Of a stretch of DNA of 17,827 nucleotides, positions 22-17,827 are shown in pieces. The DNA lies in the NCBI GenBank assembly GCA_017882525.1, contig JADGPI010000211.1, positions 1 through 17,827 on the forward strand, written 5' to 3'. How positions within the stretch are numbered: position 1 is the first letter of the stretch; every line of letters begins with the position of its first letter. The notes beneath the pieces were generated by a model. The model ran no database searches, was not told the DNA's origin, and was given only the letters and a program-made list of their open reading frames with translations. The stretch is from Thermoleophilia bacterium. Lineage in GTDB: Bacteria; Actinomycetota; Thermoleophilia; RBG-16-64-13. The position numbers and the translations under genes are program-made.

Positions 22-507
22 GTGGGACTGGTGCTCGTCGTGGTCGGACTGGCAGTGGCAGGTGCCCTCATTGCGTTGACGGTGCCGAGGAACGCGCCGT
101 TACATCCTGGCCGGTCAGGGAGTGGAGCGGGACAGGTCTCAGGAGCGGCCCTTGGACAGCGCATCTTTCTCACCGGCACCGACGAAAATGGCCACCTTAT
201 CGCCCGGTCTGGAGGGATCGCGATGATGCAGTCCGGCCTTGGCTGCGCCACGTGTCATGGATCCGACGCCCGTGGTCGCACTATCCAGATGATGATGGGC
301 CAAGTCGTCGCGCTCGATATCCGCTGGAGTGTGTTGACCGCGCCTCCCACCCAGCCGGGTGACGTGGCCTTCGACTCCAGCTCGTTCTTTCGTGCAGTGA
401 CTCAGGGCATCGACCCGACCGGCAAGGCCCTGCAGCCATACATGCCGCACTGGGAGCTTACGCAAGCGGAGAGCGACTCGCTCGTGGCCTTCCTGAAAAC
501 CCTCTAG
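22..507 (+). CDS. Membrane-anchored c-type cytochrome (class I-like, single CXXCH heme motif GCATCHG), with an N-terminal TM helix MGLVLVVVGLAVAGALIALTV. The start is GTG at 22, and the frame stays open back to the window edge, so the true start could lie upstream.
   Basis: Seen in the translation: a hydrophobic N-terminal helix, the CATCH heme-binding motif and a downstream Met-rich segment (QMMMGQ). Codon usage is consistent with neighbouring genes. The stop is TAG at 505-507. Confidence 0.6.
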   Translation: MGLVLVVVGLAVAGALIALTVPRNAPLHPGRSGSGAGQVSGAALGQRIFLTGTDENGHLIARSGGIAMMQSGLGCATCHGSDARGRTIQMMMGQVVALDIRWSVLTAPPTQPGDVAFDSSSFFRAVTQGIDPTGKALQPYMPHWELTQAESDSLVAFLKTL

Positions 508-5020: not shown

Positions 5021-5196
5021 GGCGCACTCCTTCTCCCCGTTTTTCCCTCTGAGCGCAAGGCCTGCAACCCGATGCTCGGCCAAGACCAAGTGGCAAGCTA
5101 AAGCCAGGACCTGGCGAACAAGACACTATTACTGGTCGGCGCGCCGGACTCCTGCCTGGCGATCCCGCGAGAGCGGACCGACGGGTGGCGCGTCGT

Positions 5197-6153
5197 TCAG
5201 ATACCGCAGAGCTTCGTGTCCACATAGTGGAGGGCGTGATACGCGGAGAACGCGCCACGGGCACAGGCGGTGACAACCTGTTTCAGCTCGTAGTCGCTCA
5301 CATCGCCGGCTGCGTAAAGGCCGGGACAAGAGGTCAGGCCGTTGCGGTCCACTTTGACGAAACCCTCTTCGTCGAGTTCGCAAAGCCCCTTGATGAGAGA
5401 GTTCTGCGGGTCTACGCCTACGAAGATGAACACCCCGTCGACGGGCAGAAAGTCCTCACTGCCGTCTTCAGTGGAACGCAACTTGAGGCCCGACACCTTG
5501 CCGTCCACACCCACGATCTCCTCGATGGTCCTCGACCAGTGCATGGTGATCTTCGGGTTGATGAAGCAGCGTTCCTGGATGCAGACCGTGGCCCTCAACT
5601 CTTCCCGCCGGTGGATGAGATGCACCTGGCTGGCGAACTTCGTGAGGAAGAGAGCTTCCTGGGTGGCCGCGTCGCCCCCGCCCACGACCGCCACCACCTT
5701 GTCGCGATACAGGGGCGCGTCGCACGTGGCGCACCACGAGACTCCCCGTCCTGCGAACTTCGCCTCACCGTCCACCGCGAGCTTCTTCGGCACCGCTCCT
5801 GTGGCCAGTATGAGGGCACGGGCCGTGACCTCTTCGCCGTCCAACCCTAGAACGAAGTCGCAGCCCTCCTTTTTCACGGACACGACCGGGGCAAGGGTTC
5901 TGATCTCTGCACCGGCATTCTGGGCCTGCTTCAGGAACAGATCGCCCAGCTCCATACCGCCGACTCCCTCGGGAAAGCCCGGGTAATTCTCCACCCATGA
6001 AGCGGTGACGATCTGCCCGCCGGGCAGCCCGGCTTCGTACACCACCGTGCGCGCCCTGCCTCTCGCTCCGTAGAGCGCCGCGGTCAGACCCGCGGGGCCG
6101 CCTCCCACGATGGCGATATCGACGATCTCAGCCACGTCACCCTCCACCCTCAC
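5197..6153 (-). CDS. trxB: Thioredoxin-disulfide reductase (FAD/NAD(P)-binding, with the redox-active CATC motif).
   Basis: Seen in the translation: the GGGPAG FAD motif, the WCATCD redox-active dithiol, a second Rossmann motif VVGGGDAA, and a C-terminal GLYAAGDV. The start is probably GTG at 6135 (MAEIVDIAIVGGG), with GGTGGAGGG upstream, rather than the GTG at 6153. Confidence 0.85.
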   Translation of the reverse strand: MRVEGDVAEIVDIAIVGGGPAGLTAALYGARGRARTVVYEAGLPGGQIVTASWVENYPGFPEGVGGMELGDLFLKQAQNAGAEIRTLAPVVSVKKEGCDFVLGLDGEEVTARALILATGAVPKKLAVDGEAKFAGRGVSWCATCDAPLYRDKVVAVVGGGDAATQEALFLTKFASQVHLIHRREELRATVCIQERCFINPKITMHWSRTIEEIVGVDGKVSGLKLRSTEDGSEDFLPVDGVFIFVGVDPQNSLIKGLCELDEEGFVKVDRNGLTSCPGLYAAGDVSDYELKQVVTACARGAFSAYHALHYVDTKLCGI

Positions 6154-6206: not shown

Positions 6207-7976
6207 CTACGGCACGATCTGTACCGGCGTGCCGATGTAGACGCGCGTGAAAAGGTCCTCCGCGTCGGGGATGTGCATCCGAATGCAACCATGAGAGGCG
6301 GCGGTGCCGATGCTCCAGTCCGCGTCTGTGCCGTGGATACCTATCGCCGGCGCCGAGAGCCCCATCCAACGGGTGCCGAGTGGGTTGCCCGGCCCCGGCG
6401 GCACCGGGTCCAATCCGACGGCCCAGGGAGATTTCGGGGGAGTCCAAATGGGATTGCGCACTTTCGAGATGATCTTCCAGTTTCCCACTGGGGTGGGATA
6501 GGCCGGCTGGCCGATGGCGACCGAGTACGTTTTCGCCAGTTTCCCATCAGAGAAGAGATAGAGCTTCCGCTCCGAGATGTCGATGCGGATAGAGCCGATC
6601 ATGAGAGCAAGAGCATCTGCGTTGGCTGATGTGCCCCCGGTGAGGTTTCGCGACTGGTTGAAAGCGGCCATTGCCTGCGCGGTAGCGCTGTCATAGACGC
6701 CGTTGGCCTCTCCAGTGTAGAGACCCTTCGCGGTCAGGACCTTCTGGAGCTCCACCACGTCTTTACCGGTCGCTCCCTCGCCCAGCGGCCGCGCCCCGAA
6801 GATCTCCGTGGTGTCGACCAGAAAGGTGCGATGCCAGGTCGACACGTGACCTCCGAGGTCCTGCACCGAAACGCTCACATCGTGGGTTCCCTCGGACAGT
6901 TCGCCCGTGGCCAGAAGATAGTACCTGGGCTGAGCCGCGGCGACGCTCGATGGGCTTGGCGACGTGCCGATGGTGGCAGTGGTGGACGTCGATTTCTTGG
7001 CGGTGGAAGTCTTCGCGGCCGGCTTGCCGGTCGCGGCGGGCGATGCGGTGCCGTTAGTAACGGTGCTGGTTCGGAGTAGGCTGGTATTCTGTCCGTCCAC
7101 ACTGGCGGACATCACGAGTTTGTCCGGAAAATTGTCGGCTATGGCAAGGGTGAGGGCGGCGGAGGTCTGCTTCCACGTGTCGCCCGGCCATTCTGCCTCT
7201 TGCACCGTCGGAGCCGTATAGTCGGCCCAGGCTTCCCACTCCTGGACGGTCCGATTACCCAGCGGATCAGTGACTGTGAGGGTGAATTCGTGCTTTCCCT
7301 CAGTCAGGGACAGGTCCCCTTGCACCGTCCGCCCCGCATTGACCGATGAGTCGCCCGTTGCGGAGACGGCTCCGGCTGCAGACGCCGTACTCGAAGCGGA
7401 GGAGCCGCCCAATGTCAACGCCACGTTCTTGCCATCCACGGACAGGGTCGCTGTAGCATCCTCGCTGAAGGTGGCCACGAAATGGTTCGACTTCTGGCTG
7501 AGGATCGCGAGCGGCGAAGGCGACACAACACGGACCTCGGGCGAGGTGGTATCGATCGAAAAGCTCCAAGAGCGTGACAGCCGTCGCGAGAAGATGTCCG
7601 CCGACGTGTACTCCACGGCTGCCGTATGGGTGCCGTCGGCGAGCGAAACAGTGGCCTCGGCACCGTCGGTACGCAGGGCCAGACTCGAAGCGTCAAGGGC
7701 TTTTCCGTCTACCGTTACAGTGACCGTGCCTCTGCCGGGAACGTACCCGGGAAGCGAGCACGAGATCTTGACCGAGGCGGAAGCCAAACGCGCACCCTGC
7801 TCGGGCGAGACCGCGGCCATCTGGACTGAGCGCGCGTGTTCGATCCAAACGAACCCACCCGCGGCCGCAATCAGGATGACCAGAGCCACGATGGTCCAGC
7901 CCCACCAACGGATCCGTCGCAGTCTGCCCACTCTTGCCCCGTTTTTCGGGTCGCTGACAGTAGGGCCGCGGTTCAC
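6207..7976 (-). CDS. L,D-transpeptidase family protein. It has an N-terminal TM anchor, Ig-like/Big-type beta domains, a Ser/Thr/Ala-rich linker, a peptidoglycan-binding domain (PG_binding_1) and a C-terminal YkuD catalytic domain.
   Basis: Seen in the translation: the TM helix WWGWTIVALVILIAAAGGFVWI; the PG-binding signature GATGKDVVELQKVLTAKGLYTGEANGVYDSATAQAMAAFNQSRNL; and the YkuD active-site region GIHGT...SHGCIRM. The start is GTG at 7976, although the GTG at 7931 is an alternative. Confidence 0.8.
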   Translation of the reverse strand: MNRGPTVSDPKNGARVGRLRRIRWWGWTIVALVILIAAAGGFVWIEHARSVQMAAVSPEQGARLASASVKISCSLPGYVPGRGTVTVTVDGKALDASSLALRTDGAEATVSLADGTHTAAVEYTSADIFSRRLSRSWSFSIDTTSPEVRVVSPSPLAILSQKSNHFVATFSEDATATLSVDGKNVALTLGGSSASSTASAAGAVSATGDSSVNAGRTVQGDLSLTEGKHEFTLTVTDPLGNRTVQEWEAWADYTAPTVQEAEWPGDTWKQTSAALTLAIADNFPDKLVMSASVDGQNTSLLRTSTVTNGTASPAATGKPAAKTSTAKKSTSTTATIGTSPSPSSVAAAQPRYYLLATGELSEGTHDVSVSVQDLGGHVSTWHRTFLVDTTEIFGARPLGEGATGKDVVELQKVLTAKGLYTGEANGVYDSATAQAMAAFNQSRNLTGGTSANADALALMIGSIRIDISERKLYLFSDGKLAKTYSVAIGQPAYPTPVGNWKIISKVRNPIWTPPKSPWAVGLDPVPPGPGNPLGTRWMGLSAPAIGIHGTDADWSIGTAASHGCIRMHIPDAEDLFTRVYIGTPVQIVP

Positions 7977-8841: not shown

Positions 8842-8871
8842 TTGACATTGCATGACTTACTGTGATTTAAT
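8842..8871 (+). promoter_or_regulatory. Sigma-70-like promoter of rex. The -35 element is TTGACA (8842-8847), followed by an 18-nt spacer and an extended -10 TGaTTTAAT (8863-8871).
   Basis: Seen in the sequence. It lies about 28 nt upstream of the RBS GAGGAGG (8887-8893) and the ATG at 8899. It sits in the most AT-rich stretch of the window. Confidence 0.45.
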
Positions 8872-8876
8872 TCACC
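8861..8876. promoter_or_regulatory. Rex-operator-like palindrome TGTGATTTAATTCACC (compare the Rex consensus TTGTGAA-N4-TTCACAA). It overlaps the -10 of the rex promoter, which suggests autoregulation.
   Basis: The half-sites TGTGA and TCAC are seen in inverted orientation with the correct spacing. The relevant established knowledge is the Rex operator consensus from Firmicutes, Actinobacteria and Thermus. Confidence 0.5.
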
Positions 8877-8898: not shown

Positions 8899-9627
8899 AT
8901 GGGCTCCGAAGACACAAAAGGCCGTGACCCGATCTCTCTGGAGACAGAGGCGGAAACAGCCGACCCTCCGAAGGCCCAAACGGAACGCAACAGTCGGCCC
9001 GACAAGCGAGTTTCGCTCCATACCGTCGAGCGGCTGAGCAGTTATCGGCGGATTCTGGAGGAACTCGATCATGAGGGCGTCGAGTACATCCATTCGCAGA
9101 GCCTCGCCGCCCTCGTAGGAGTCACACCCGCCCAACTGCGGCGTGATCTCGCCAGCTTTGGCACCTTCGGCAATATCTCCCGCGGCTACAACGTCTATCA
9201 GATGAGCCGGACCATTAGCCGCATCATGGGCACCGACAACGTGCAGGCGGTCGCTCTTTTCGGGGTCGGCGACTTGGGTCGGGCCTTGCTGTCGTATCGA
9301 GGCTTCGAGGAGCGAGGCTTCCAGATCGCCGTGGCTTTCGACCTCGACCAGGAGAAGATAGGACACGTCTTCGCTGGGCGTCGCTGCTATGCGCTCGCCG
9401 ATCTGGAGACGGTGGTGGCAGACTACGCCGTGCGCGTGGGAATCCTTGCGTCTAGACCTGAGGGTATCCAAGCACTCGTGGACAGGGCGGCTGCCGCGGG
9501 GGTCAGGTCGTTCTTGAACTTCGTGCCGAAGCGCGTCGCCCCTCCGCCGGGTTGTTTCGTGGAGCACATGGACATCTCGGCCAAGTTGGAGAAGCTCTCC
9601 TTTCTGAGTCGGCGGGAGGGAGAGTAG
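8899..9627 (+). CDS. rex: Redox-sensing transcriptional repressor Rex (NADH/NAD+ sensor). It has an N-terminal ~35-aa low-complexity extension, then a wHTH domain and a Rossmann-fold domain.
   Basis: Seen in the translation: a Rex-like wHTH (VERLSSYRRILEEL...LAALVGVTPAQLRRDLASFGTFGNISRGYNV), the Rossmann motif GVGDLGRAL, and the C-terminal swap-helix region. The RBS GAGGAGG lies 5 nt upstream. Confidence 0.85.
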   Translation: MGSEDTKGRDPISLETEAETADPPKAQTERNSRPDKRVSLHTVERLSSYRRILEELDHEGVEYIHSQSLAALVGVTPAQLRRDLASFGTFGNISRGYNVYQMSRTISRIMGTDNVQAVALFGVGDLGRALLSYRGFEERGFQIAVAFDLDQEKIGHVFAGRRCYALADLETVVADYAVRVGILASRPEGIQALVDRAAAAGVRSFLNFVPKRVAPPPGCFVEHMDISAKLEKLSFLSRREGE

Positions 9628-9668: not shown

Positions 9669-9686
9669 TTGTGAACCGTTTCACTG
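9669..9686. promoter_or_regulatory. Rex-operator-like palindrome TTGTGAACCGTTTCACTG in the rex to response-regulator intergenic region. It lies upstream of the hydrogenase and two-component operon.
   Basis: Seen in the sequence. It matches the consensus TTGTGAA-N4-TTCACAA at 12 of 14 specified positions and lies 63 nt upstream of the ATG at 9749. Confidence 0.55.
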
Positions 9687-9748: not shown

Positions 9749-10186
9749 ATGACGACCAAAAAGATCCTCGTCGTGGACGACGACCGCGACCTCGTGGCGT
9801 CGATGGAGGCTTTTCTCGGAGCACGCGGCTTCGAAGTGGCCACGGCTCACAACGGCCGGGAGGCCTACGCGCGGATCGTGGAGAGCCGGCCCGACCTCAT
9901 CGTCCTCGATGTGATGATGGACTACGACGAAGAGGGTATGGTCTTTGCCAGCGCTCTGAAGACCGATGGGCCTACGCGAGACATCCCCATCATCATGGTC
10001 TCCGGCTTCAACGTCCAGAAGGAGACCAGAGAAAGGGTCATCGCCTCGCTCATGGGCCAGGATTGGCCGGCTGAGACGTTCTTCCAGAAACCGGTCCGCC
10101 TCGCCGACCTCGCCGCGCGCATCGACCTGCTGCTCGAGCGGGAGGAGGAACGGCACACGCCGTGGCCACTGGCGGAAGAGGCCTAG
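9749..10186 (+). CDS. Single-domain response regulator (a CheY-like receiver only), the first gene of the hydrogenase operon.
   Basis: Seen in the translation: the receiver signatures ILVVDDDRD, the phospho-acceptor D in LIVLDVMM, a conserved S (MVSG) and K (FQKPV). There is no output domain. The RBS GAAGGAGGAGG lies upstream. Confidence 0.8.
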   Translation: MTTKKILVVDDDRDLVASMEAFLGARGFEVATAHNGREAYARIVESRPDLIVLDVMMDYDEEGMVFASALKTDGPTRDIPIIMVSGFNVQKETRERVIASLMGQDWPAETFFQKPVRLADLAARIDLLLEREEERHTPWPLAEEA

Positions 10187-10692
10187 CCGTGAGCTCCGTC
10201 GCCGAGATCATCAGGGAACGCGGCCTCGCAGAGCGAGGCGAGTTTGCAACCGACCAGTTGATCCCCCTGCTTCAGGAGATACAGGCGCGGGAGGGTCACG
10301 TTTCTGAGAAGGCGATGAGCGCTCTCGCGGCCGCGCTCGACACCTCTGTCGCGCGGGTGTACGGAGTGGCGACCTTCTACAACCAATTCCGCTTCGCGCC
10401 TTTGGGCGAGCATGTCATCGAGATCTGCCGGGGAACGGCGTGCCATGTCAAACAGAGCCTGGCTCTGGCACAGCACCTCAAGCGGCGGCTCAAGCTGCGC
10501 GAGGACGGCAACTCCTCCGACGGTCGTTTCACCGTCCTCAGCGTTGCCTGCTTGGGGGCCTGCTCGATCGCTCCGGTCTTGAAGCTGGACGGCGAGTTCT
10601 ACGGCCATCTCACGCTGGAGAAACTCGACGAACTGCTGGACAACGCCGGAAGCCCGCTCCAGGTCGCTCCACAGGAAGTGAGCTTGTCATGA
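10162..10692 (+). CDS. NuoE/HndA/HydC-like thioredoxin-fold [2Fe-2S] subunit of an NAD(P)H-linked multimeric hydrogenase.
   Basis: Seen in the translation: CRGTAC (Cx4C) and CLGACSIAP (Cx3C), the 2Fe-2S motifs typical of the NuoE family. The start is either ATG 10162, which overlaps the upstream gene by 25 nt, or the in-frame GTG 10189 just after its stop. The stop overlaps the next start (ATGA at 10689-10692). Confidence 0.8.
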   Translation: MATGGRGLAVSSVAEIIRERGLAERGEFATDQLIPLLQEIQAREGHVSEKAMSALAAALDTSVARVYGVATFYNQFRFAPLGEHVIEICRGTACHVKQSLALAQHLKRRLKLREDGNSSDGRFTVLSVACLGACSIAPVLKLDGEFYGHLTLEKLDELLDNAGSPLQVAPQEVSLS

Positions 10693-12704
10693 CCGAGAGC
10701 ACGCTTGTCGTCCCTTGCTGCTCCCGCTGCACCCACACCCTCAGTAACCCTTGCAGGGACCTGGTCTACTGCATCCAGAACGGTCCGGCATGCCACCAGT
10801 CCCCGGAGTGTTCGGAGGAGCGCGGGAAACGGCGCGCGCGCGTGCTCCGCGGCGGCGAAGACATCGTCCTCTACGTGGGTGCCGGCACATGTGGTCTGGC
10901 CAACGGCGCCGCTCGGGTCATCGAGAGATCTCGAGAATACTTTGCGGCGCGCTCCCTACCGGTGTCTGTGGTGGCAGTCGGCTGCGTGGGCTATTGCCAG
11001 CGCGAAGTGTTCGTCGACATGCGAGGCCGGGATGGAGTCCGCCTCTCCTATTGCGACCTGGGCCCGGACACCGTCGCCGAGTTCCTCGAGAGCGTCTTCG
11101 AGCGCGGCGAACTGCGCAACCGGTTCCTTTACGGTCGGTACCCGGACCCGTCGAGTGCTGCCGGGGCAGGCAGCCCCAGCTACGAGGACATCCCACTCAT
11201 CGGGGAAACACCGTTCTTCGAGCGCCAGACCCGTGTGGTACTCCAGAACTGCGGCGTCATAGATCCCGGGTCTGTGGACGCGGCCCTCGCTGCCGGCGGC
11301 TTCTCCTCCGCCGTACGGGCGCTCACTACCATGACCCGCGAAGAGGTGTGCCACACAGTACTTGCCTCCGGACTTCGGGGCCGGGGCGGGGCGGGCTTCC
11401 TCACCGGGCGGAAGTGGAAGATCGCATTGGAAACCCCGCGCGCTCAGAAGTACCTCATCTGCAACGCCGACGAGGGTGACCCCGGAGCGTTCATGGACCG
11501 CGCGGTGCTCGAGAGCGACCCGTTTCGGGTGCTCGAAGGCATGCTGATCGCAGCGTATGCGATCGGCGCGAGCAAAGGTTACGTGTACTGCCGGGCCGAG
11601 TACCCGCTCGCGATCGAACGCCTGCAGGATGCCATAGACCAGTGCCGCCGGGCCGGCTTCCTGGGCACCAACATCTTCGGAAGCCTCGTCGACTTCGACA
11701 TCAGTATCAAACAAGGCGCCGGGGCATTCGTCTGCGGTGAGGAGACGGCCATCCTAGCCAGCATCGAAGGGGGCAGGGGCACGCCCCGTCCTCGGCCGCC
11801 GTACCCGGCTGTGAGCGGCCTCCATGGCAAGCCGACCGTGCTCAACAACGTCGAGACCCTGGCGAACGTCCCGGAGATCCTACGCCGCGGGGCAGAGTGG
11901 TTCCGCGACCTGGGCTTGGGTGACGCGGCCGGCACCAAGGTCTTCGCCCTGAGCGGCCAGGTGCGGAACACCGGCCTGGTAGAGGTGCCGGTGGGCATCC
12001 CGTTGCGCGAGATAGTATGCGCGATCGGCGGCGGCGCTCCTGAAGGGCACCGGCTGAAAGCGGTCCAGATCGGCGGACCGAGCGGCGGCTGCATCCCCGA
12101 GCACCTGCTGGACGTGGCCACCGACTACGGTAAACTGCAGGAACTCGGCGCCATGATGGGCTCCGGGGGCATGGTCGTGATGGACGAGCGGACCTGCATG
12201 GTCGACGTGGCCAAGTACTTCATGGAGTTCATCCGCAACGAGTCGTGCGGCAAATGCACCCCGTGTCGGGAAGGCACCACACGCATGCACGAGATTCTCG
12301 TGGCCCTCACTGAGCGGCCGGTGGGAGAAGAGATCCGCCAGCTCGAGCGCTTCCGCGGTCTCCTCCACCTTGAAGAACTCGCGGATACCATCAAGGACAC
12401 CTCGCTGTGCGGGCTCGGACAGTCCGCCGCCAACCCCGTCCTTTCGACGCTCCGGTTCTTTCGCGACGAGTACGAGGCCCACATCATGGAGAACGTCTGT
12501 CCCGCCGGCGTCTGCCAGGGCCTCCGAACGTACAGCATCGACACCTCGATGTGCACGGGCTGCACACAGTGCCGCAAGAGTTGTCCCAGCGGCGCCATCG
12601 TCGGGGAACGCAAGAAGGTCCACTACATCGTCGTCGACCGTTGCGTCGGCTGCGGGGCCTGCGCCGACGCCTGCCCCAAGCAGGCCGTCGCAGCGGTGGC
12701 TTGA
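10689..12704 (+). CDS. NuoF/HndC/HydB-like flavoprotein subunit (NADH-binding, FMN, [4Fe-4S]). It has an N-terminal thioredoxin-like domain, two C-terminal [4Fe-4S] ferredoxin domains, and an unusual ~45-aa Cys-rich N-terminal extension.
   Basis: Seen in the translation: the NuoF signatures RGGAGFLTG and ESCGKCTPCREG; the C-terminal CTGCTQCRKSCP and CVGCGACADACP; and the N-terminal segment PCCSRCTHTLSNPCRDLVYCIQNGPACHQSPEC. The ATG start at 10689 is coupled (ATGA) to the upstream stop. The upstream part of the 10440 ORF overlaps the previous gene and is not used. Confidence 0.85.
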   Translation: MTESTLVVPCCSRCTHTLSNPCRDLVYCIQNGPACHQSPECSEERGKRRARVLRGGEDIVLYVGAGTCGLANGAARVIERSREYFAARSLPVSVVAVGCVGYCQREVFVDMRGRDGVRLSYCDLGPDTVAEFLESVFERGELRNRFLYGRYPDPSSAAGAGSPSYEDIPLIGETPFFERQTRVVLQNCGVIDPGSVDAALAAGGFSSAVRALTTMTREEVCHTVLASGLRGRGGAGFLTGRKWKIALETPRAQKYLICNADEGDPGAFMDRAVLESDPFRVLEGMLIAAYAIGASKGYVYCRAEYPLAIERLQDAIDQCRRAGFLGTNIFGSLVDFDISIKQGAGAFVCGEETAILASIEGGRGTPRPRPPYPAVSGLHGKPTVLNNVETLANVPEILRRGAEWFRDLGLGDAAGTKVFALSGQVRNTGLVEVPVGIPLREIVCAIGGGAPEGHRLKAVQIGGPSGGCIPEHLLDVATDYGKLQELGAMMGSGGMVVMDERTCMVDVAKYFMEFIRNESCGKCTPCREGTTRMHEILVALTERPVGEEIRQLERFRGLLHLEELADTIKDTSLCGLGQSAANPVLSTLRFFRDEYEAHIMENVCPAGVCQGLRTYSIDTSMCTGCTQCRKSCPSGAIVGERKKVHYIVVDRCVGCGACADACPKQAVAAVA

Positions 12705-12714
12705 AAGGTCTGCC

Positions 12715-14565
12715 ATGAACGTCACGATCAACGACAAGAAGCTGCGATCCGCTCCCGGCGAGACGGTGCTCCAAGTGGCCCGCAGGGCCGGCATCAACAT
12801 CCCACATCTGTGCTCGCTCGACTGGGCCCCGTCACCCTCGGCCTCCTGCCGCCTCTGCGTGGTGGAAGTCGAGGGTATGTCCAGGCTCCAGACCAGCTGC
12901 ACCCTGCCCGCGACGGAAGGCATGGTGGTCCGCACCCACACGCCGCGCGTCCTCAAGGCGCGCCGGGCCATCGTGGAGTTGCTCGTGGCCAACCATCCGC
13001 AGGACTGCCTCACCTGTTCGCGATCCGGCAAATGCGAACTGGCCGACTTGGCCGGTGACCTCGGCGTGCGGCAGCGGCGGTACGCAGGAGTCAAGAAAGA
13101 CCAACCTATCGACATCTCTTCGCCGGCGATCTGGCGAGATCCTAACAAATGCGTGCTCTGCGGACGCTGTGTGACCATGTGCCAGCACGTCCAGGGAGTG
13201 GGAGCGATCGATTTTACCGGGCGAGGCTTCCGCACTCAGGTCGCTCCTGGTTTTTACGCGGGGCTCAACGTCTCGGGGTGCGTATACTGCGGTCAATGCG
13301 TGCGGGTCTGCCCCACCGGGGCGCTCGTCGAACGGAGCCACGTCGACGCGGTCGTGGCAGAGCTTGGCGATCCAAACACAGTGGTGGTGGCGCAGATAGC
13401 GCCGGCAGTGCCGGCCACTCTCCTGAAAGGCCACAGCAAACGGCAAGACGTCCACTCGACCCTCGAGCGGCTGGCGGCAGCGCTCAAACATGTCGGCTTC
13501 ACCGCGATCTTCGATACCTGTTTCGCTGCCGACCTGACCATCATGGAAGAGGCCACCGAGCTTCTCCAGCGGGTCCAAAAGGGCGGCGTCCTCCCGATGT
13601 TCACGAGCTGCTCTCCGGCCTGGGTCCAATTCGTGGAAACGCACCGGCCCGACCTCATCCCCCACCTCTCCACGTGCAAGTCGCCCCAGCAGATGGCGGG
13701 CGCCCTGATCAAAGAGCTTTACCCAGGCTATGCCGGACTCGACGGCAAGCGACTGGTAGTCGTGTCTCTCATGCCCTGCACGGCCAAGAAGTTCGAGGCA
13801 CAGGACCAAGGAGACGTCGATTACGTGCTCACCACCCGCGAACTGGACGCGCTGTGGGATCGTTTCGGCATCGACTTCGCTGCATTCGAAGAACAAACGC
13901 CTCTCGACCCGCCGTTTTCGGAAGCCACCGGCGCCGGTCGCCTTTTCGGCGGCAGTGGCGGGGTGATGGAAGCGGCCGTGCGAACAGCGGCCACCCTGGT
14001 GGGAGGTGACGCCGCGACGATGGAGTTGACGACCGAGGCTCGAGGTCTCGACGGCGTCAAGTGCTTCACCGTTGAGCTCGGCGGGACCACCCTGAAACTG
14101 GGCGTAATCAACGGCCTTGGCCGGCTGCGCCCGGCCCTGGACGAAGTGTTGTCGGATCTTCATTTCGTGGAAGTCATGTCCTGTCCCGGAGGGTGCGTGG
14201 GCGGCGGCGGCCAACCGTATGGCAGCGAGATCGAGGACGTGCGCAAAAGGCAGGGAAATCTCTACCAAGCCGACCTGCGTTCGGACGCCCGCGGCTCCCA
14301 CGAGAACGCCGGTGTGGCTGCCCTCTACCAGGACCTTCTGGGCCGTCCGCTCAGTGAAGTGTCGCATCACCTGCTGCACCGCGAGTACGCGGACCGAAGT
14401 GGCGGTAACGGCGATGATGCCCCCCTTTCGGCAGTGAGCGGCGCCGCGCACCATGCGGCCGACGCGGCCGCTCCGCGCGCGGCCGCAGCCCAGGCGCCCG
14501 TCCGCGAAGCCCCTTCGCTCGCAGCCGTCGGCGCGGCCGCGGCGGCCGCCGGCAGGGAAGACTGA
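12715..14565 (+). CDS. hydA: [FeFe]-hydrogenase large subunit HydA, with M3-type architecture. It has a plant-type [2Fe-2S] domain, a His-ligated [4Fe-4S], two [4Fe-4S] ferredoxin domains and the H-cluster domain, followed by an Ala-rich C-terminal tail. Its L1 motif deviates from canonical, reading TSCSPAW.
   Basis: Seen in the translation: HPQDCLTCSRSGKC (Hx3Cx2Cx5C); CVLCGRCVTMC and CVYCGQCVRVCP; the H-cluster motifs L2 MPCTAKKFE (13771-13797) and L3 EVMSCPGGCVGGGGQP (14171-14218); and L1 FTSCSPAW (13603-13623) instead of TSCCPxW. The start is ATG 12715, 10 nt after the hydB stop. The upstream part of the 12370 ORF is a GC-frame artefact. Confidence 0.85.
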   Translation: MNVTINDKKLRSAPGETVLQVARRAGINIPHLCSLDWAPSPSASCRLCVVEVEGMSRLQTSCTLPATEGMVVRTHTPRVLKARRAIVELLVANHPQDCLTCSRSGKCELADLAGDLGVRQRRYAGVKKDQPIDISSPAIWRDPNKCVLCGRCVTMCQHVQGVGAIDFTGRGFRTQVAPGFYAGLNVSGCVYCGQCVRVCPTGALVERSHVDAVVAELGDPNTVVVAQIAPAVPATLLKGHSKRQDVHSTLERLAAALKHVGFTAIFDTCFAADLTIMEEATELLQRVQKGGVLPMFTSCSPAWVQFVETHRPDLIPHLSTCKSPQQMAGALIKELYPGYAGLDGKRLVVVSLMPCTAKKFEAQDQGDVDYVLTTRELDALWDRFGIDFAAFEEQTPLDPPFSEATGAGRLFGGSGGVMEAAVRTAATLVGGDAATMELTTEARGLDGVKCFTVELGGTTLKLGVINGLGRLRPALDEVLSDLHFVEVMSCPGGCVGGGGQPYGSEIEDVRKRQGNLYQADLRSDARGSHENAGVAALYQDLLGRPLSEVSHHLLHREYADRSGGNGDDAPLSAVSGAAHHAADAAAPRAAAAQAPVREAPSLAAVGAAAAAAGRED

Positions 14566-14572
14566 GGGCCCC

Positions 14573-16696
14573 GTGGACGGCATCATCACAACCATCAAAC
14601 AGAACTGCCGCCGCTGCTTCACGTGCGTGCGCGACTGCCCGGCCAAAGCGATCCGCATCGAGGATGGCCAGGCTTCAGTGGTGACCGAACGCTGCATCGG
14701 GTGCGGCAACTGCACCATCGTCTGCTCGCAGAACGCCAAAGCGTATCTCGACAGCACCGAACGTGCGTTCTGGCTGCTCGACCGGGGCGGCACGGTCGCG
14801 GCTCTCCTGGCCCCGTCGTTTCCCGCAGGCTTCTCCGCGCCGCCCGCGCAAGTCGTCGGAGCTCTTCGGAAAGTGGGCTTCGCGTATGTGGTGGAAGTCG
14901 CATATGGCGCGGAACTCGTGAATCAGGCCTACCGCGACTACCTTGGCGAGCACCCGACAGGCGTCCACATTGCAACCGCGTGCACCGCGGTGGTCGAATA
15001 CGTGCGGAAATACCGCCCCCAACTCACCGAGCGACTCATTCCCATCGTCTCTCCCATGGTGGCGACGGCCCTTGCCGTGAAAGCTCGGTATGGCCAGCAC
15101 GTCCGCTGTGTGTTCATTGGGCCTTGCGTGGCGAAAAAAGGTGAGGCACGGTACCCCGGAGTTGTGGGAGTCGTGGATGAAGTCCTCACGCTGACCGAGG
15201 CGACGACCGTGCTCACCGCGCGCGGCATCGACCCGGCGCAAACCCCCGCCAGCGACTTCGACCCCCCGTTCGCGGGAGAAGCCCGTGTCTTTCCGATCCC
15301 CGGAGGAATGCTGGAAAGCGCCCGATTGGGCGGCGGGATCCTCGACCCGGAGCTGATCGTGGTAAGCGGTCACGACGAGACCATCCAGGCCCTTGACGCG
15401 CTCCCCGAGGGTGAGACCGACAAGGCATTGCTGGTGGAAGCCCTCATGTGCAACGGCTGCTATTGCGGACCAGGGGTGCAGACCCTGGAGCCGGCCGTGA
15501 TGCGCAAGCGCCGGGTGATCGAGTTCGCGGCCGACAGCCTTCGCCGGCAGGGATCCGGAGAGCTGCCTGCCTGCGATGAGACGGATACCTCTCTTTGGCT
15601 CGGTCGTGAGTACACCTCCGACGACCGGCGGTACGACCAGCCGAGTGAAGAGAAGATCCGGGAGATCCTGGCCCGCACCAACAAGTTCTTCCCCGAAGAC
15701 GAGCTCAACTGCGGAGCCTGCGGATACCCCACCTGCCGCGCCAAGGCCACCGCGGTGGTGAGCGGCATGGCGGAGGAAGCCATGTGCCTGCCGTTCATGA
15801 TCGAGCAGGCCGAGCGGGTCTGCCACGAGCTTCGCGTGCCGTGGAAAGACCTGCGTGAAGTGCACCGCCACCTCATCAACACCGAGAAGCTGGCTTCGAT
15901 GGGGCAGATGGCGGCCGGCGTCGCCCACGAGTTGAACAACCCACTCAGCAGCATCCTGCTCTACTCCCACATCCTGGGGCGCAAGCTCGAGGACCGGCCC
16001 GACCTGAGCCACGACCTCAAGCTCGTCGCCGACGAGTCGGAGCGCTGCAAGAAGATCATCGGCAACCTACTCGACTTCGCCCGGCAAACCCGGGTGCACA
16101 TCGAAGCGGTCTCGATCGATGAACTCGTTCGCTCGGCCGTGGACGCGGCCGCATGCAACTTGAGCCCCGGCCCTGGCGGGGCAACCGCGGGCGGCGCCGG
16201 GCGGAACGGCGCGGGGCCGCATGGACCGCGCTCTGGCGGTGGGGTGGAGCTCACACTCGAAGTGACCCCTGGGCTGCAGGCCGACCTGGACCGCGATCAG
16301 ATGACGCAGGTTCTAGTCAACCTCCTCAAGAACGGAGTCGAGGCCATGGAGGGCCGCACCGGCGTCGTGAAACTGTCGGCATATGAGATTCCCGAGCAGC
16401 ATCGGGTCCACTTCGCGGTCAGCGACCAAGGGTGCGGCATCCCAGGCGGCGCTCAGGACAAGGTGTTCCAGCCGTTCTTCACCACCAAGAGCATCGGCAA
16501 GGGAACAGGCCTTGGTCTTCCGATCTCGTACGGCATCGTGAAGATGCACGGCGGCACCATCTGGTTCGAGTCCCAACCCGATCAAGGCACCACTTTCCAC
16601 GTGGAGATCCCCATAACCCATGCGGCCGGTGAGAAGCCCATGACGACAGAGAAGCCCTTCTTACCGAACCAACCTCCCAAGGAGTATGTGATATGA
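14573..16696 (+). CDS. Sensory-type (HydS-like, group C-like) [FeFe]-hydrogenase domain fused to a histidine-kinase transmitter. The order is two [4Fe-4S] ferredoxin domains, a divergent H-cluster domain, a Cx2Cx4Cx16C motif, then HisKA (H-box HELNNPL) and HATPase_c. It is a putative H2-sensing histidine kinase.
   Basis: Seen in the translation: CRRCFTCVRDCP and CIGCGNCTIVC; an H-domain that aligns colinearly with the adjacent HydA (TACTAVV for L1, GPCVAKKGE for L2 and EALMCNGCYCGPG for L3); NCGACGYPTC...x16...C; AAGVAHELNNPLSSI; and the N/G boxes LLKNGVEAM, DQGCGI and GTGLGLPIS. The start is set at GTG 14573, 8 nt after the hydA stop. The ATG at 14453 would add a 40-aa P/R-rich segment overlapping hydA. 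The stop overlaps the next start (ATGA at 16693-16696). Confidence 0.8.
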   Translation: MDGIITTIKQNCRRCFTCVRDCPAKAIRIEDGQASVVTERCIGCGNCTIVCSQNAKAYLDSTERAFWLLDRGGTVAALLAPSFPAGFSAPPAQVVGALRKVGFAYVVEVAYGAELVNQAYRDYLGEHPTGVHIATACTAVVEYVRKYRPQLTERLIPIVSPMVATALAVKARYGQHVRCVFIGPCVAKKGEARYPGVVGVVDEVLTLTEATTVLTARGIDPAQTPASDFDPPFAGEARVFPIPGGMLESARLGGGILDPELIVVSGHDETIQALDALPEGETDKALLVEALMCNGCYCGPGVQTLEPAVMRKRRVIEFAADSLRRQGSGELPACDETDTSLWLGREYTSDDRRYDQPSEEKIREILARTNKFFPEDELNCGACGYPTCRAKATAVVSGMAEEAMCLPFMIEQAERVCHELRVPWKDLREVHRHLINTEKLASMGQMAAGVAHELNNPLSSILLYSHILGRKLEDRPDLSHDLKLVADESERCKKIIGNLLDFARQTRVHIEAVSIDELVRSAVDAAACNLSPGPGGATAGGAGRNGAGPHGPRSGGGVELTLEVTPGLQADLDRDQMTQVLVNLLKNGVEAMEGRTGVVKLSAYEIPEQHRVHFAVSDQGCGIPGGAQDKVFQPFFTTKSIGKGTGLGLPISYGIVKMHGGTIWFESQPDQGTTFHVEIPITHAAGEKPMTTEKPFLPNQPPKEYVI

Positions 16697-17145
16697 GCAC
16701 CGCATGGACCATCCTGTTCGTAGACGACGATCGCGATTTTCTCCAGGCTCAAGCCGCCTATTTCGGGAGCCGCGGCCACGAAGTGCTCACTGCGGCGAGC
16801 AGCAGTGAAGCCATGGAGACTTTGGATGTCACCACCCCGGACATCATCTTCTTGGACCTGATGATGGAGCGCTTCGACAGCGGCTTCCGGCTTGGCTACG
16901 AGATCCGCAAGCGCGAGCGCCTAACCGACACGCCTATCGTCATGCTGAGCGGAGTGGCCGCGGCGACCGGGGAGCGGTTCAGCGACGAGGCCGACGGCCT
17001 TCGCTCGTGGTCGCGGCTCGACCGTTTCATCGACAAACCGGTGACTGGGAAGCAACTGTTGAGCGTTGCGGAGGAGCTGCTAGGCGGCTGCGATACGCAG
17101 GGCTGCGGCTTGAACCAGTGCCGGACGCCCGGCGGCACGGCGTAG
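16693..17145 (+). CDS. Single-domain response regulator (receiver only) that is paralogous to the 9749 receiver and carries a Cys-rich C-terminal tail (CDTQGCGLNQC).
   Basis: Seen in the translation: ILFVDDDRD, IFLDLMM, MLSG and FIDKPV, which align residue by residue with the first receiver. It is translationally coupled to the kinase gene. Confidence 0.8.
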   Translation: MSTAWTILFVDDDRDFLQAQAAYFGSRGHEVLTAASSSEAMETLDVTTPDIIFLDLMMERFDSGFRLGYEIRKRERLTDTPIVMLSGVAAATGERFSDEADGLRSWSRLDRFIDKPVTGKQLLSVAEELLGGCDTQGCGLNQCRTPGGTA

Positions 17146-17166: not shown

Positions 17167-17827
17167 GTGACGACCGTGATCCCTGCCAATATCCTCGTAG
17201 TGGACGACGAGTACGGAGTCCGGACGGGCATCAGACAGATCCTCGAGCTCGAGGGCTACAACGTGGACGATTGCGACACCGGGGAGAAGGCGCTCGCGTT
17301 GCTCGAAGCCAACGACTACGATGTCGCCTTACTCGACTACCGGCTGCCCGACATCGACGGGTTGATGCTGTTACAGGCCATCAAGCGCAACGACCTGCAG
17401 CCCATGACCTGCATGATCACGGCCTACGCCAACATCGACACTGCCATCGCCGCTACCCGCCAGGGGGTGGATTTCTTCCTGCCCAAGCCATTCTCGCCCG
17501 AGGACCTTATCGGCGTGGTGCAGACGCTCGCGCGCCACAAGCAGGCCCGGGTGGAAGCCGAGCGGTTGCGCCGCGAGCACGAAGCTGGCCTCCTCGCACT
17601 CGCCGAAGAGAAGACGCAGACGCACTCACTCGTCTCCTCATTGCGGGACGCGGTGCTGGTGGTAAACCGCGAAGGCGACGTGGTACTCGCCAACCGGGCC
17701 ATGACCTCCCTGCTCGGGATCGCCGAAGACCGGGTGCTACGGCGGCCCGCCCAAGAAGTCCTTGCCCAGGGGCCGCTCGCGCCGCTGGCGGGAAAACTGG
17801 CCGCGCCAGTCAAGGATAGGACTGTGA
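17167..17827 (+). CDS. Partial CDS running off the window end: a response-regulator receiver domain followed by a PAS domain. The C-terminal output or transmitter is not visible.
   Basis: This is my own translation of the frame-1 ORF, which is absent from the supplied track because it has no stop in the window. The receiver reads VTTVIPANILVVDDEYGVRTGIRQILELEGYNVDDCDTGEKALALLEANDYDVALLDYRLPDIDGL...CMITAYANIDTAIAATRQGVDFFLPKPF, and the PAS-like segment reads LRDAVLVVNREGDVVLANRAMTSLLGI. The start is GTG 17167 or 17176, after GGGGGAAAGA. The 17007..17819 (+) ORF listed in the track is an R/G-rich artefact in another frame. Confidence 0.65.
   Translation, partial: MTTVIPANILVVDDEYGVRTGIRQILELEGYNVDDCDTGEKALALLEANDYDVALLDYRLPDIDGLMLLQAIKRNDLQPMTCMITAYANIDTAIAATRQGVDFFLPKPFSPEDLIGVVQTLARHKQARVEAERLRREHEAGLLALAEEKTQTHSLVSSLRDAVLVVNREGDVVLANRAMTSLLGIAEDRVLRRPAQEVLAQGPLAPLAGKLAAPVKDRTV

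What the first reader, a model, noticed from the sequence alone, without database searches (positions are those of the whole stretch)
14573..16696. A sensory [FeFe]-hydrogenase domain fused directly to a histidine-kinase transmitter, making a putative single-polypeptide H2-sensing kinase
The sequence shows that the N-terminal two-thirds has the architecture of HydS-type (group C) putative sensory [FeFe]-hydrogenases: two [4Fe-4S] ferredoxin motifs and an H-cluster domain colinear with the neighbouring HydA but with degenerate motifs.

- L1 reads TACTAVV, with a single Cys and no CC pair.
- L2 reads GPCVAKKGE, with Gly where catalytic enzymes have the Met of MPC.
- L3 reads EALMCNGCYCGPG instead of ExMACPGGCxxGGGQP.
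- A C-terminal Cx2Cx4Cx16C four-Cys motif follows (15710-15787). As I recall, the same spacing is described for the accessory cluster of Thermotoga HydS.

In characterised HydS proteins this module is followed by a PAS domain, and signalling is thought to go through separate PP2C or kinase partners. Here there is no PAS domain. The module runs straight into a DHp/HisKA domain (H-box HELNNPL, 15926) and a complete HATPase_c domain (N, G1 and G2 boxes).

That makes it a candidate direct H2 or redox-poise sensor kinase. It would be an [FeFe] analogue, in one polypeptide, of the [NiFe] HoxBC-HoxJ H2-sensing system. As far as I know, the signalling mechanism of sensory [FeFe]-hydrogenases is still unresolved, so a direct hydrogenase-to-kinase fusion with cognate receivers next door offers a tractable model.
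Basis: partly seen in the sequence, partly recalled or inferred. Interest (0 to 1): 0.85.

Follow-up and report, generated by a model that had tools for sequence, protein, structure and literature searches.

The report
Hydrogenase-like sensor fused to histidine kinase
The gene really does encode a sensory-type [FeFe]-hydrogenase module joined directly to a histidine kinase, but this fusion occurs in many bacterial phyla and genome surveys have already noted it, so this is a new member of a known, biochemically untested kind.

Summary
Window 14573-16696 (+) is one uninterrupted 707-aa ORF. It holds two [4Fe-4S] motifs, an H-cluster domain, a Cx2Cx4Cx16C cluster domain, a helical linker, HisKA and HATPase_c. 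It has no PAS domain.

All four H-cluster cysteines are kept. The proton-relay Cys is Ala and CpI Met353 is Gly, both as reported for Thermotoga HydS.

The fusion is not an assembly artefact. More than 120 protein clusters and 80 of 80 fetched species-genome loci, from about 20 phyla, carry both halves in one frame. Most sit in the same cluster: rex, hydC, hydB, hydA, sensor-kinase, receiver, receiver-PAS-kinase.

The novelty claim is overstated. HydDB already lists a histidine-kinase-linked subgroup of group C. Papers on Elusimicrobia (2020) and Hydrogenedentota (2024) describe group C hydrogenases carrying kinase domains beside HydABC-type hydrogenase genes. I found no biochemical study of the fused form.

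The most likely function is an H2-responsive kinase that passes phosphate to the adjacent receivers and acts alongside Rex. This is inferred, not shown.

Verdict: new member of a known kind, moderate interest. Its value is as a practical model for [FeFe] H2 signalling, which is still unresolved.

The parts
14573..16696 (+). Sensor-kinase gene, 707 aa: 2x[4Fe-4S] motifs, H-domain, FeS domain, helical linker, HisKA, HATPase_c.
   Evidence: Continuous ORF. Pfam domains. Start codon fixed by homologue N-termini. Both AlphaFold models and the PDB fold matches agree: [FeFe]-hydrogenases for the N-terminal part and ZraS kinase for the C-terminal part.
14606..14725 (+). Two ferredoxin-type [4Fe-4S] motifs: C12, C15, C18, C22 and C41, C44, C47, C51.
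   Evidence: Fer4_10 and Fer4_9 hits. Seven of the eight Cys are invariant and C44 is nearly so across 123 relatives.
14795..15472 (+). H-cluster domain (Fe_hyd_lg_C). Ligands are C137 (nt 14981-14983), C185 (15125-15127), C293 (15449-15451) and C296 (15458-15460). A136 stands in place of the proton-relay Cys and G183 in place of CpI Met353.
   Evidence: Pfam E-value 1.5e-38. Residue-by-residue alignment to the D. desulfuricans hydrogenase. Conservation tables. pLDDT above 90 across this region.
15704..15793 (+). Accessory cluster domain (PF04060): C380-x2-C383-x4-C388-x16-C405.
   Evidence: Pfam E-value 1.3e-10. All four Cys are invariant in 123 relatives. The same motif is described for group C and D HydS (PMC8163306).
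15785..15898 (+). All-helical linker (aa 405-442) from the last cluster Cys into the DHp domain. No PAS fold is present.
   Evidence: AlphaFold predicts helices 405-420 and 424-471, the second running through H452, but pLDDT here is only 45-56. The linker is strongly conserved among close homologues, for example C417, P423, W424, H431 and H433.
15899..16087 (+). HisKA/DHp domain, with phospho-acceptor H452 in the H-box HELNNPL (nt 15926-15928).
   Evidence: Pfam HisKA E-value 1.1e-15. H452 and its flanking residues are invariant in 121 homologues.
16178..16246 (+). Gly-rich low-complexity insertion (about aa 536-558) between DHp and the ATPase domain, specific to this lineage.
   Evidence: Present only in the window, P0001 and P0002, and absent from the other aligned homologues. 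pLDDT is below 50. No DNA tandem repeat was found.
16289..16618 (+). HATPase_c catalytic domain with N box (N583, N587), G1 (D618-x-G-x-G), F box (FQPFF) and G2 (G642-x-G-x-G-L-G).
   Evidence: Pfam E-value 2.8e-26. Conservation in homologues. Fold match to the ZraS cytoplasmic domain with TM 0.80.
16693..17145 (+). Stand-alone receiver REC1. Its ATG overlaps the kinase stop codon (ATGA).
   Evidence: Response_reg E-value 1.8e-14. It keeps this position in most of the 80 related loci.
17167..17827 (+). Receiver-PAS protein that runs off the end of the window. The full-length orthologue is REC-PAS-HisKA-HATPase, about 483 aa.
   Evidence: Pfam on the window fragment and on L009:10450-11901. Called genes in L081. 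Synteny.
12715..14565 (+). HydA, the catalytic [FeFe]-hydrogenase of a HydABC-type NADH-linked enzyme. Its stop codon is 7 nt before the sensor's start codon.
   Evidence: Pfam Fer2_4, NADH-G_4Fe-4S_3, Fer4, Fe_hyd_lg_C (2.2e-75) and Fe_hyd_SSU. Best PDB match is T. kivui HydA1, 2.3e-151. Best NCBIfam hit is 'NADH-dependent [FeFe] hydrogenase, group A6'.
10689..12704 (+). HydB (NuoF-like flavoprotein subunit). The start codon is approximate.
   Evidence: Complex1_51K, NADH_4Fe-4S and Fer4. NuoF family and CCxxC prefix domain.
10162..10692 (+). HydC (NuoE-like [2Fe-2S] subunit). The start codon is approximate.
   Evidence: 2Fe-2S_thioredx E-value 1.1e-43.
9749..10186 (+). Stand-alone receiver REC0, lying between rex and hydC.
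   Evidence: Response_reg E-value 4.3e-18. It is kept at 71-79% identity in most Actinomycetota loci and at 44-46% in two deltaproteobacterial loci, L008 and L011.
8899..9627 (+). Rex, the NADH/NAD+-sensing transcriptional repressor and first gene of the cluster.
   Evidence: Pfam Put_DNA-bind_N and CoA_binding. NCBIfam Rex E-value 8e-58. It holds this position in most related loci.
8861..8876 (+). Rex-operator-like palindrome TGTGATTTAATTCACC, just upstream of rex.
   Evidence: Pattern search found 2 sites against 0.26 expected by chance. Sequence context.
9670..9685 (+). Rex-operator-like palindrome TGTGAACCGTTTCACT, between rex and REC0/hydCBA.

Best explanation
The gene encodes a cytoplasmic sensor histidine kinase whose input module is a group-C-type (HydS-like) sensory [FeFe]-hydrogenase. 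This function is inferred from sequence and context, not measured.

Proposed mechanism:
1. The H-cluster, matured by HydEFG encoded elsewhere in the genome, binds and slowly oxidises H2. The proton-relay Cys and the glutamate/arginine proton path are missing, so turnover should be slow and the reduced state long-lived.
2. The resulting redox or conformational change passes through the Cx2Cx4Cx16C cluster domain and a continuous helical linker into the DHp helix that carries H452.
3. This alters autophosphorylation of the kinase dimer.
4. Phosphate then goes to the translationally coupled stand-alone receiver REC1, to the receiver of the downstream REC-PAS-kinase, or to both.

Together with Rex, which senses NADH/NAD+ and has two operator-like sites in the cluster's two intergenic gaps, the system would match expression or activity of the adjacent NADH-linked HydABC hydrogenase to H2 pressure and redox state.

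Shown here: domain architecture, conserved ligands and kinase motifs, absence of PAS, conserved synteny. Inferred: H-cluster assembly, H2 as the signal, the direction of kinase regulation, the phosphotransfer partners and the final output.
For: - Architecture and motifs are confirmed.
- The four H-cluster Cys, the eight N-terminal Cys and the four accessory-cluster Cys are invariant or nearly so in 123 relatives sampled at 50% clustering.
- The cofactor-pocket residues P81/S82 (CpI P231/S232) and K188 (K358) are kept. Relay Cys to Ala and Met353 to Gly are the changes reported for Thermotoga HydS (PMC8163306).
- The proton-path residues E279, E282, R286 and S319 are absent in the sensor but intact in the neighbouring HydA.
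- H, N, G1, F and G2 boxes are invariant in 121 homologues.
- The second AlphaFold model (mean pLDDT 79) gives a confident H-domain and kinase core, and only helices between C405 and H452. Fold matches are to [FeFe]-hydrogenases and to ZraS kinase.
- Synteny of rex, hydCBA, sensor-kinase, REC and REC-PAS-kinase holds across phyla.
- The same input module is found joined directly to sigma-54 activators, GGDEF domains and other kinases. That is what one expects of a signalling input domain.
- HydDB and two genomic papers interpret this class as H2 sensors.
Against: - No biochemical data exist for any kinase-fused member in the literature I could search.
[quoted passage not shown] A simple relay of cluster redox state into the kinase is therefore doubtful (PMC13104023).
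- No hydEFG genes are in the window.
- No DNA-binding response regulator is in the cluster, so the output is unknown.
- The linker is modelled at low confidence, pLDDT 45-56.
- The window's L1 has Thr where nearly all relatives have Pro (the CpI P301 position). The effect is unknown.
- The Hydrogenedentota authors could not find canonical P1-P3 H-cluster motifs in their group C1 set and doubted H2 sensing for those proteins. Here the degenerate motifs do align and all ligands are present.
Confidence: 0.6

Rival explanations
1. The protein is a redox-poise or oxidant sensor rather than an H2 sensor. The Fe-S clusters, with or without a [2Fe] subsite, equilibrate with the ferredoxin pool or react with O2, CO or NO. 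The kinase then reports cluster oxidation state or cluster integrity.
For: - Four cluster-binding sites are conserved.
- The N-terminal ferredoxin-like domain is the usual docking and electron-entry site in [FeFe]-hydrogenases (PMC8163306).
- The cluster sits with Rex and an NADH-linked hydrogenase, so redox state is a physiologically relevant signal.
- H-cluster assembly was not shown here.
Against: - The residues that specifically line the [2Fe] subsite, and the bridging Cys (C296), are as strictly conserved as the cubane ligands. That would be unnecessary for a plain Fe-S redox sensor.
- The characterised relatives TmHydS and TamHydS do bind an H-cluster and react with H2.
- Rex already covers NADH sensing in the same cluster.
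Confidence: 0.2
2. The protein is a bound regulatory 'T' subunit of the HydABC complex, as in the BfuT idea of the Hydrogenedentota paper. It would control the enzyme after translation, with the kinase and the single-domain receivers acting on the complex rather than on transcription.
For: - The gene lies immediately downstream of hydA, with a 7-nt gap, in most loci.
- The cluster has three receivers and two kinases but no DNA-binding output domain.
- PMC11406978 names these proteins the T subunit of BfuABC sub-types.
Against: - No evidence of physical association was found.
- Solved HydABC structures contain no such subunit (hits).
- Several loci carry the sensor-kinase with no HydABC within the stretch fetched, for example L010, L033 and L073.
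- This reading is compatible with H2 sensing rather than an alternative to it.
Confidence: 0.15
3. The fusion is an assembly or frameshift artefact that joins a separate HydS gene to a separate kinase gene.
For: None was found.
Against: - The ORF is continuous.
- More than 120 independent protein clusters have the same full-length architecture.
- In all 80 species-genome loci, the H-domain and kinase halves abut in one frame.
- The linker is strongly conserved.
Confidence: 0.01

Closest known systems
Group C putative sensory [FeFe]-hydrogenases of the PAS type (M2f; Thermotoga maritima HydS, Ruminococcus albus HydS, T. saccharolyticum HfsB)
   Same: - Same N-terminal two [4Fe-4S] motifs, H-domain and Cx2Cx4Cx16C cluster.
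- The relay Cys is lost (Ala) and Met353 is Gly.
- The gene lies next to a HydABC-type hydrogenase.
- PAS-only proteins are among the closest H-domain relatives and share the hallmark residues and the Cx2C spacing in L3.
   Different: - There is no PAS domain. The cluster domain runs through a helical linker directly into DHp/CA.
- In a rough neighbour-joining tree of the sensor module, the PAS-only proteins group together. The directly fused kinase, sigma-54 and GGDEF forms fall outside that group (no support values).
HydDB [FeFe] group C1 'histidine kinase-linked' and group C3 proteins with a His-kinase domain (Caldithrix abyssi WP_006928132.1; Hydrogenedentota 'BfuT'; the Elusimicrobia group C hydrogenase)
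   Same: - A sensory H-domain carries HisKA/HATPase in one polypeptide.
- It is encoded beside group A3/HydABC genes, with Rex nearby.
- Hydrogenedentota and Elusimicrobiota loci were recovered here as full-length relatives at 39-43% identity.
   Different: - The window's protein comes from an uncultured Actinomycetota lineage (Thermoleophilia/Gaiellales-like), with 61-72% identity to those MAGs.
- It carries a lineage-specific Gly-rich insertion and a Pro-to-Thr change in L1.
- I could not determine which HydDB subgroup, C1 or C3, it would be assigned to.
Group D putative sensory [FeFe]-hydrogenase (M2e; Thermoanaerobacter mathranii HydS)
   Same: - Same N-terminal clusters and C-terminal Cx2Cx4Cx16C cluster.
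- No PAS domain.
- The relay Cys is lost.
- A kinase-like gene lies nearby.
   Different: - Group D typically has Ser or Thr at the Met353 position. This protein and its relatives have Gly.
- Group D proteins end after the cluster domain, with the kinase-like protein encoded separately.
[NiFe] regulatory hydrogenase HoxBC with the kinase HoxJ (HydDB [NiFe] group 2b)
   Same: The logic is the same: a slow, sensor-type hydrogenase controls a histidine kinase and two-component signalling, which governs a metabolic hydrogenase.
   Different: - The metal site and fold are unrelated.
- That sensor and kinase are separate polypeptides.
- HoxJ uses a PAS-like domain.
- The output there is a DNA-binding regulator (HoxA), and none is present here.

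Membership tests
[FeFe]-hydrogenase, putative sensory group C (HydS-like) | Four H-cluster cysteine ligands (CpI C300, C355, C499, C503) | tested here: met
   C137, C185, C293 and C296 align to these positions. C185, C293 and C296 are invariant and C137 is at least 90% conserved in 123 relatives. L3 is one residue shorter (Cx2C).
[FeFe]-hydrogenase, putative sensory group C (HydS-like) | [quoted passage not shown] | tested here: met
   Eight N-terminal Cys are present, together with C380, C383, C388 and C405. PMC8163306 gives this motif as the unifying feature.
[FeFe]-hydrogenase, putative sensory group C (HydS-like) | Altered active-site surroundings: relay Cys299 lost, Met353 replaced by Gly, proton-transfer residues missing | tested here: met
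   A136 and G183 are in those positions, and there are no equivalents of E279, E282, R286 or S319. TmHydS has Ala and Gly at the same positions.
[FeFe]-hydrogenase, putative sensory group C (HydS-like) | PAS domain following the C-terminal cluster, as used in reviews to define group C | tested here: not met
   No PAS hit at E<=0.01. AlphaFold shows only helices between C405 and H452. HydDB's own subclasses do not require PAS.
[FeFe]-hydrogenase, putative sensory group C (HydS-like) | Phylogenetic placement within group C against curated group A-G references or the HydDB classifier | tested here: inconclusive
   The 150 best representatives of the sensor module all carry the same module, and they include PAS-type HydS-like proteins. 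A rough neighbour-joining tree rooted on HydA groups the window with other fused forms. No curated group B, D or E references and no HydDB classifier were available.
[FeFe]-hydrogenase, putative sensory group C (HydS-like) | Binds an H-cluster and reacts with H2 | not testable with these tools
   This needs expression, maturation and FTIR/EPR. No hydEFG genes lie in the window.
HisKA-type (class I) sensor histidine kinase | DHp domain with a phospho-acceptor His in an H-box | tested here: met
   HisKA E-value 1.1e-15. H452 in HELNNPL is invariant. The model shows two long helices, 424-471 and 476-504.
HisKA-type (class I) sensor histidine kinase | Catalytic ATP-binding domain with N, G1, F and G2 boxes | tested here: met
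   HATPase_c E-value 2.8e-26. The boxes are conserved. Fold match to ZraS with TM 0.80.
HisKA-type (class I) sensor histidine kinase | Cognate receiver domain encoded nearby | tested here: met
   REC1 (16693-17145) overlaps the kinase stop codon. A REC-PAS-kinase follows. Both are conserved in related loci.
HisKA-type (class I) sensor histidine kinase | Autophosphorylation and phosphotransfer activity | not testable with these tools
   This is a biochemical assay.
[FeFe]-hydrogenase group D (M2e, TamHydS-like) | Ser or Thr at the CpI Met353 position, and no domain after the C-terminal cluster | tested here: not met
   Gly183 is present, and Gly is found in 34 of 35 direct-kinase relatives. A kinase of about 300 aa follows the cluster.
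[NiFe] regulatory hydrogenase / HoxJ system | [NiFe] large and small subunits plus a separate PAS-containing kinase | tested here: not met
   No [NiFe] hydrogenase domains occur in the protein or its neighbours. The resemblance is functional only.

The most novel reading that the evidence does not exclude
The Fer4x2-H-domain-FeS unit may be a general, portable H2-sensing input module. Evolution has attached it directly, without PAS, to histidine kinases, sigma-54 enhancer-binding ATPases and diguanylate cyclases.

In the kinase version seen here, the output may not be transcriptional. The conserved partners are a single-domain receiver and a REC-PAS-kinase, with no DNA-binding regulator. Phosphorylation could therefore act on HydABC, on Rex or on a second kinase. 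This would be a signalling layer for fermentative H2 metabolism that has not been described.
Probability: 0.25. Interest if true: 0.6.

Novelty: new member of a known kind. Interest (0 to 1): 0.38.

Why it matters
How sensory [FeFe]-hydrogenases turn H2 binding into a cellular signal is still unknown. The two enzymes studied so far, TmHydS and TamHydS, have no known partner, and the 2026 TamHydS paper explicitly calls for interaction partners to be identified.

A protein in which the sensor is covalently joined to a kinase gives a direct, measurable readout: autophosphorylation and phosphotransfer to a receiver encoded 0 nt away. Kinase-fused members would therefore make good experimental models.

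The specific gene in this window adds no new architecture. It extends the known family to an uncultured actinobacterial lineage. The survey also showed how widespread and syntenic the rex-hydCBA-sensor kinase-REC-REC/PAS/kinase cassette is, including in Kuenenia and many candidate phyla.

Tried and rejected
- The first AlphaFold run, on a 15-sequence alignment, was too poor to use (mean pLDDT 60). I repeated it with 121 sequences.
- An exact-sequence look-up of the window's protein found no source contig. I used P0009 instead for annotated context.
- Greening et al. 2016 (ISME J), the source of the group C definition, is not held in the library. HydDB's table was used in its place.
- A tandem-repeat origin for the Gly-rich insertion found no support.
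- The Pelobacter and Melioribacter genome papers held nothing on fused sensor kinases.
I replaced it with local jackhmmer typing of the C-terminal tails, seeded by ten Pfam-annotated members.
- ATG 14453 was rejected as the start codon.
- The assembly-artefact reading was rejected.
- I first took the neighbouring HydA's TSCSP motif to be anomalous. The same motif occurs in the structurally solved A. woodii HydA1, so I set it aside as a known natural variant.
Full report
**Observation**

Window 14573-16696 (+) is a single uninterrupted reading frame of 707 codons. Pfam finds, in order and all above gathering cut-offs:
- a 4Fe-4S dicluster domain
- Fe_hyd_lg_C (1.5e-38)
- the 'FeS' domain PF04060 (1.3e-10)
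- HisKA (1.1e-15)
- HATPase_c (2.8e-26)

No PAS family is hit. These are ATACTAVV, GPCVAKKGE, EALMCNGCYCGPG, C380-x2-C383-x4-C388-x16-C405 (nt 15710-15787) and the H-box HELNNPL with H452 at nt 15926.

GTG 14573 is the true start. Homologues begin at the same M-x-G-I-I-x-T-I-K-Q-N-C. A GAGGG lies 4 nt upstream, overlapping the hydA stop codon. The longer ATG 14453 version would only add an Arg/Pro-rich stretch read out of frame across hydA.

**The fusion is real and common**

A word-indexed search of 5.8 billion proteins returned more than 120 clusters at 61-98% identity. All have the same five-domain architecture, and most are 665-700 aa long.

The 80 loci kept nearly all cover roughly residues 4-680 of the query. 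In all 80, the H-domain half and the kinase half abut in one frame. By record title the hosts include:
- Actinomycetota (Thermoleophilia/Gaiellales, 61-72% identity, the likely source lineage)
- Planctomycetota, including Kuenenia
- Myxococcota and several deltaproteobacterial orders
- Bacteroidota, Hydrogenedentota, Verrucomicrobiota, Lentisphaerota and Kiritimatiellota
- Melainabacteria, Elusimicrobiota, Acidobacteriota, Spirochaetota and Fibrobacterota
- Chloroflexota, Clostridia and several candidate phyla

**The hydrogenase half**

Alignment to the D. desulfuricans enzyme gives these equivalences, in CpI numbering:

| Sensor residue | CpI position |
|---|---|
| A136 | relay Cys299 |
| C137 | Cys300 |
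| T138 | Pro301 |
| G183 | Met353 |
| C185 | Cys355 |
| K188 | Lys358 |
| L291 | Met497 |
| C293 | Cys499 |
| C296 | Cys503 |

There is a one-residue deletion between C293 and C296.

- In 123 relatives drawn from a 50%-clustered library, C185, C293, C296, the four accessory-cluster Cys and seven of the eight N-terminal Cys are invariant. C137, G183, P184, K188 and E191 are at least 90% conserved.
- The proton path E279/E282/R286/S319 is intact in the adjacent HydA (IMEEATELLQR...HLSTCKSPQQ). It has no counterpart in the sensor.
- Relay Cys to Ala and Met353 to Gly are exactly the substitutions reported for Thermotoga HydS. Group D enzymes typically have Ser or Thr at Met353 (PMC8163306).

By hallmark residues the module is therefore group-C-like, not group A or D.

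**Relatives of the sensor module**

An exhaustive HMMER search with residues 1-410 found 850 representatives at E<=1e-30. All of the best 150 matched along the module, and most span it in full, including the FeS domain. Their C-terminal tails fall into classes:

| Tail type | Count (of 123 aligned) |
|---|---|
| PAS only (about 570 aa, the canonical HydS architecture) | 61 |
| Direct HisKA or HisKA_3 kinase | 35 |
| Direct sigma-54 AAA+ activator with HTH | 11 |
| PAS-sigma-54 | 5 |
| PAS-kinase, with or without receivers | 5 |
| Direct GGDEF | 3 |
| Untyped | 3 |

A rough neighbour-joining tree of the module, rooted on HydA, groups the PAS-only proteins together. It places the window among the directly fused forms. 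The tree has no support values, so this is indicative only.

**The kinase half and the junction**

H452 and the N, G1, F and G2 boxes are invariant in 121 homologues.

The first AlphaFold model was unusable (pLDDT 60). With 121 sequences the model reached mean pLDDT 79:
- pLDDT is above 90 across the H-domain and high in the kinase core.
- A helix spans 405-420. After a three-residue break, a continuous helix 424-471 runs through H452.
- No beta-sheet, and so no hidden PAS fold, lies between the cluster domain and DHp.
- The linker itself is low-confidence (pLDDT 45-56), as expected for a monomer model of a dimeric coiled coil.

Foldseek matches the N-terminal 400-460 residues to CbA5H, DdH, CpI and the HydA subunits of HydABC. 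It matches the C-terminal part to the ZraS cytoplasmic domain with TM 0.80. No solved structure of a group C or D sensor appears.

A Gly-rich insertion (about aa 536-558) is confined to the window and its two closest relatives, and it is disordered in the model.

**Genomic context**

All of these genes are on the + strand, with overlaps or tiny gaps between them:

| Gene | Coordinates |
|---|---|
| rex | 8899-9627 |
| REC0 | 9749-10186 |
| hydC (NuoE-like) | 10162-10692 |
| hydB (NuoF-like) | about 10689-12704 |
| hydA | 12715-14565 |
| sensor-kinase | 14573-16696 |
| REC1 (ATGA overlap with the kinase stop) | 16693-17145 |
| REC-PAS protein, running off the window | 17167 onward |

- The orthologue of the last gene is REC-PAS-HisKA-HATPase, about 483 aa.
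- The order rex, hydC, hydB, hydA, sensor-kinase, REC, REC-PAS-kinase recurs across phyla in most loci with enough flank.
- REC0 is largely confined to the Actinomycetota loci, with weaker copies in two deltaproteobacterial loci.
- No receiver in the cluster carries a DNA-binding domain. Rex is the only DNA-binding protein.
- Two Rex-operator-like palindromes lie in the two intergenic gaps, at 8861-8876 and 9670-9685. Two were found against 0.26 expected by chance.

**Most likely function**

The protein is best read as an H2-responsive sensor kinase. A slow, sensor-type H-cluster reports H2. The signal passes through the accessory-cluster domain and the helical linker to the DHp. Phosphate then goes to REC1, to the REC-PAS-kinase, or to both. 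Rex adds NADH/NAD+ control of the same operon.

Only the anatomy and its conservation are shown. H-cluster assembly, the identity of the signal, the sign of regulation, the partners and the output are inferred.

One caution applies. In TamHydS the C-terminal cluster is not reduced under 1 atm H2, so the coupling is more likely conformational than a simple redox relay (PMC13104023).

The rivals are a general Fe-S redox or oxidant sensor and a bound regulatory subunit of HydABC. Neither is excluded. The strict conservation of [2Fe]-site residues favours H2 over the first. The second is compatible with H2 sensing rather than an alternative to it.

**Comparison with what is known, and novelty**

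- HydDB (2016) lists [FeFe] group C1 as 'Histidine kinase-linked (putative)'.
- Meheust et al. [quoted passage not shown]
- A 2024 study of Hydrogenedentota described group C3 'T subunits' with either a PAS or a His-kinase domain beside group A3 genes. It also described group C1 proteins with HATPase_c.
- Reviews and biochemical papers still define group C by PAS, and none has studied a fused kinase.
- NCBIfam has no dedicated model for the fusion.

The window's gene is thus a new, actinobacterial member of a known but uncharacterised kind.

**Verdict**

The finding is of moderate interest, chiefly because kinase-fused members would make the open question of [FeFe] H2 signalling directly testable.

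Noticed in passing
window 8861-8876 and 9670-9685: Two Rex-operator-like inverted repeats, TGTGATTTAATTCACC and TGTGAACCGTTTCACT, sit in the only two intergenic gaps of the + strand cluster. One is just upstream of rex and the other lies between rex and REC0/hydCBA. Two were found against 0.26 expected by chance. This suggests Rex autoregulates and also controls the hyd and sensor genes.
   Followed up: partly
window 12715-14565 (HydA; L1 motif FTSCSPAW): In the adjacent HydA, the second Cys of the canonical TSCCPxW motif is Ser. That position aligns with the cubane ligand CpI C300. In 56 of 59 HydAs that were detected in the related sensor-kinase loci the motif is also TSCSP. The solved A. 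woodii HydA1 (PDB 7q4v) has ITSCSPGW. The best NCBIfam hit is 'NADH-dependent [FeFe] hydrogenase, group A6', below its cut-off. This looks like a natural variant that co-occurs with this sensor.
   Followed up: partly
window 9749-10186, 16693-17145 and 17167-17827; L009 10450-11901; L081 12429-13883: The cluster encodes two kinases and three receiver domains but no DNA-binding response regulator. The last gene is a REC-PAS-HisKA-HATPase protein. The output of the phosphorelay is therefore unknown and may not be transcriptional.
   Followed up: partly
proteins P0130, P0136, P0145, P0148, P0150, P0155, P0172, P0173 (not in the window): The same Fer4x2-H-domain-FeS sensor module is fused directly to other outputs. 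These are GGDEF diguanylate cyclases, sigma-54 AAA+ activators with HTH (with or without PAS), HisKA_3 kinases and PAS-kinase-REC-REC hybrids. The papers I read did not mention the sigma-54 or GGDEF fusions.
   Followed up: partly
window 16178-16246: A Gly-rich, low-complexity insertion (...GPGGATAGGAGRNGAGPHGPRSGGG...) lies between DHp and the ATPase domain. It is present only in the window and its two nearest relatives, is disordered in the model, and has no DNA tandem repeat.
   Followed up: yes
window 14984-14986 (T138): L1 reads ACT where nearly all relatives have ACP, with Pro at the CpI P301 position. Only 1 of 35 direct-kinase representatives has Thr there, and P0001 shares it. The effect on the cubane environment is unknown.
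   Followed up: no
window 1569-2783 (-): An encapsulin shell protein (Linocin_M18, 2.4e-64) carries an N-terminal DUF5661 extension. It is unrelated to the hydrogenase cluster.
   Followed up: no
window 22-507 (+), 535-1470 (+), 3341-5089 (-), 5197-6153 (-), 6207-7976 (-): The other genes in the window are a weak cytochrome c-like ORF, a MIP-family channel, an SLH/Big_5/CopC cell-surface protein, a thioredoxin-reductase-like flavoprotein and a YkuD L,D-transpeptidase with a PG_binding domain. The SLH domain and the 62-69% G+C content fit a Gram-positive-type actinobacterial host.
   Followed up: no
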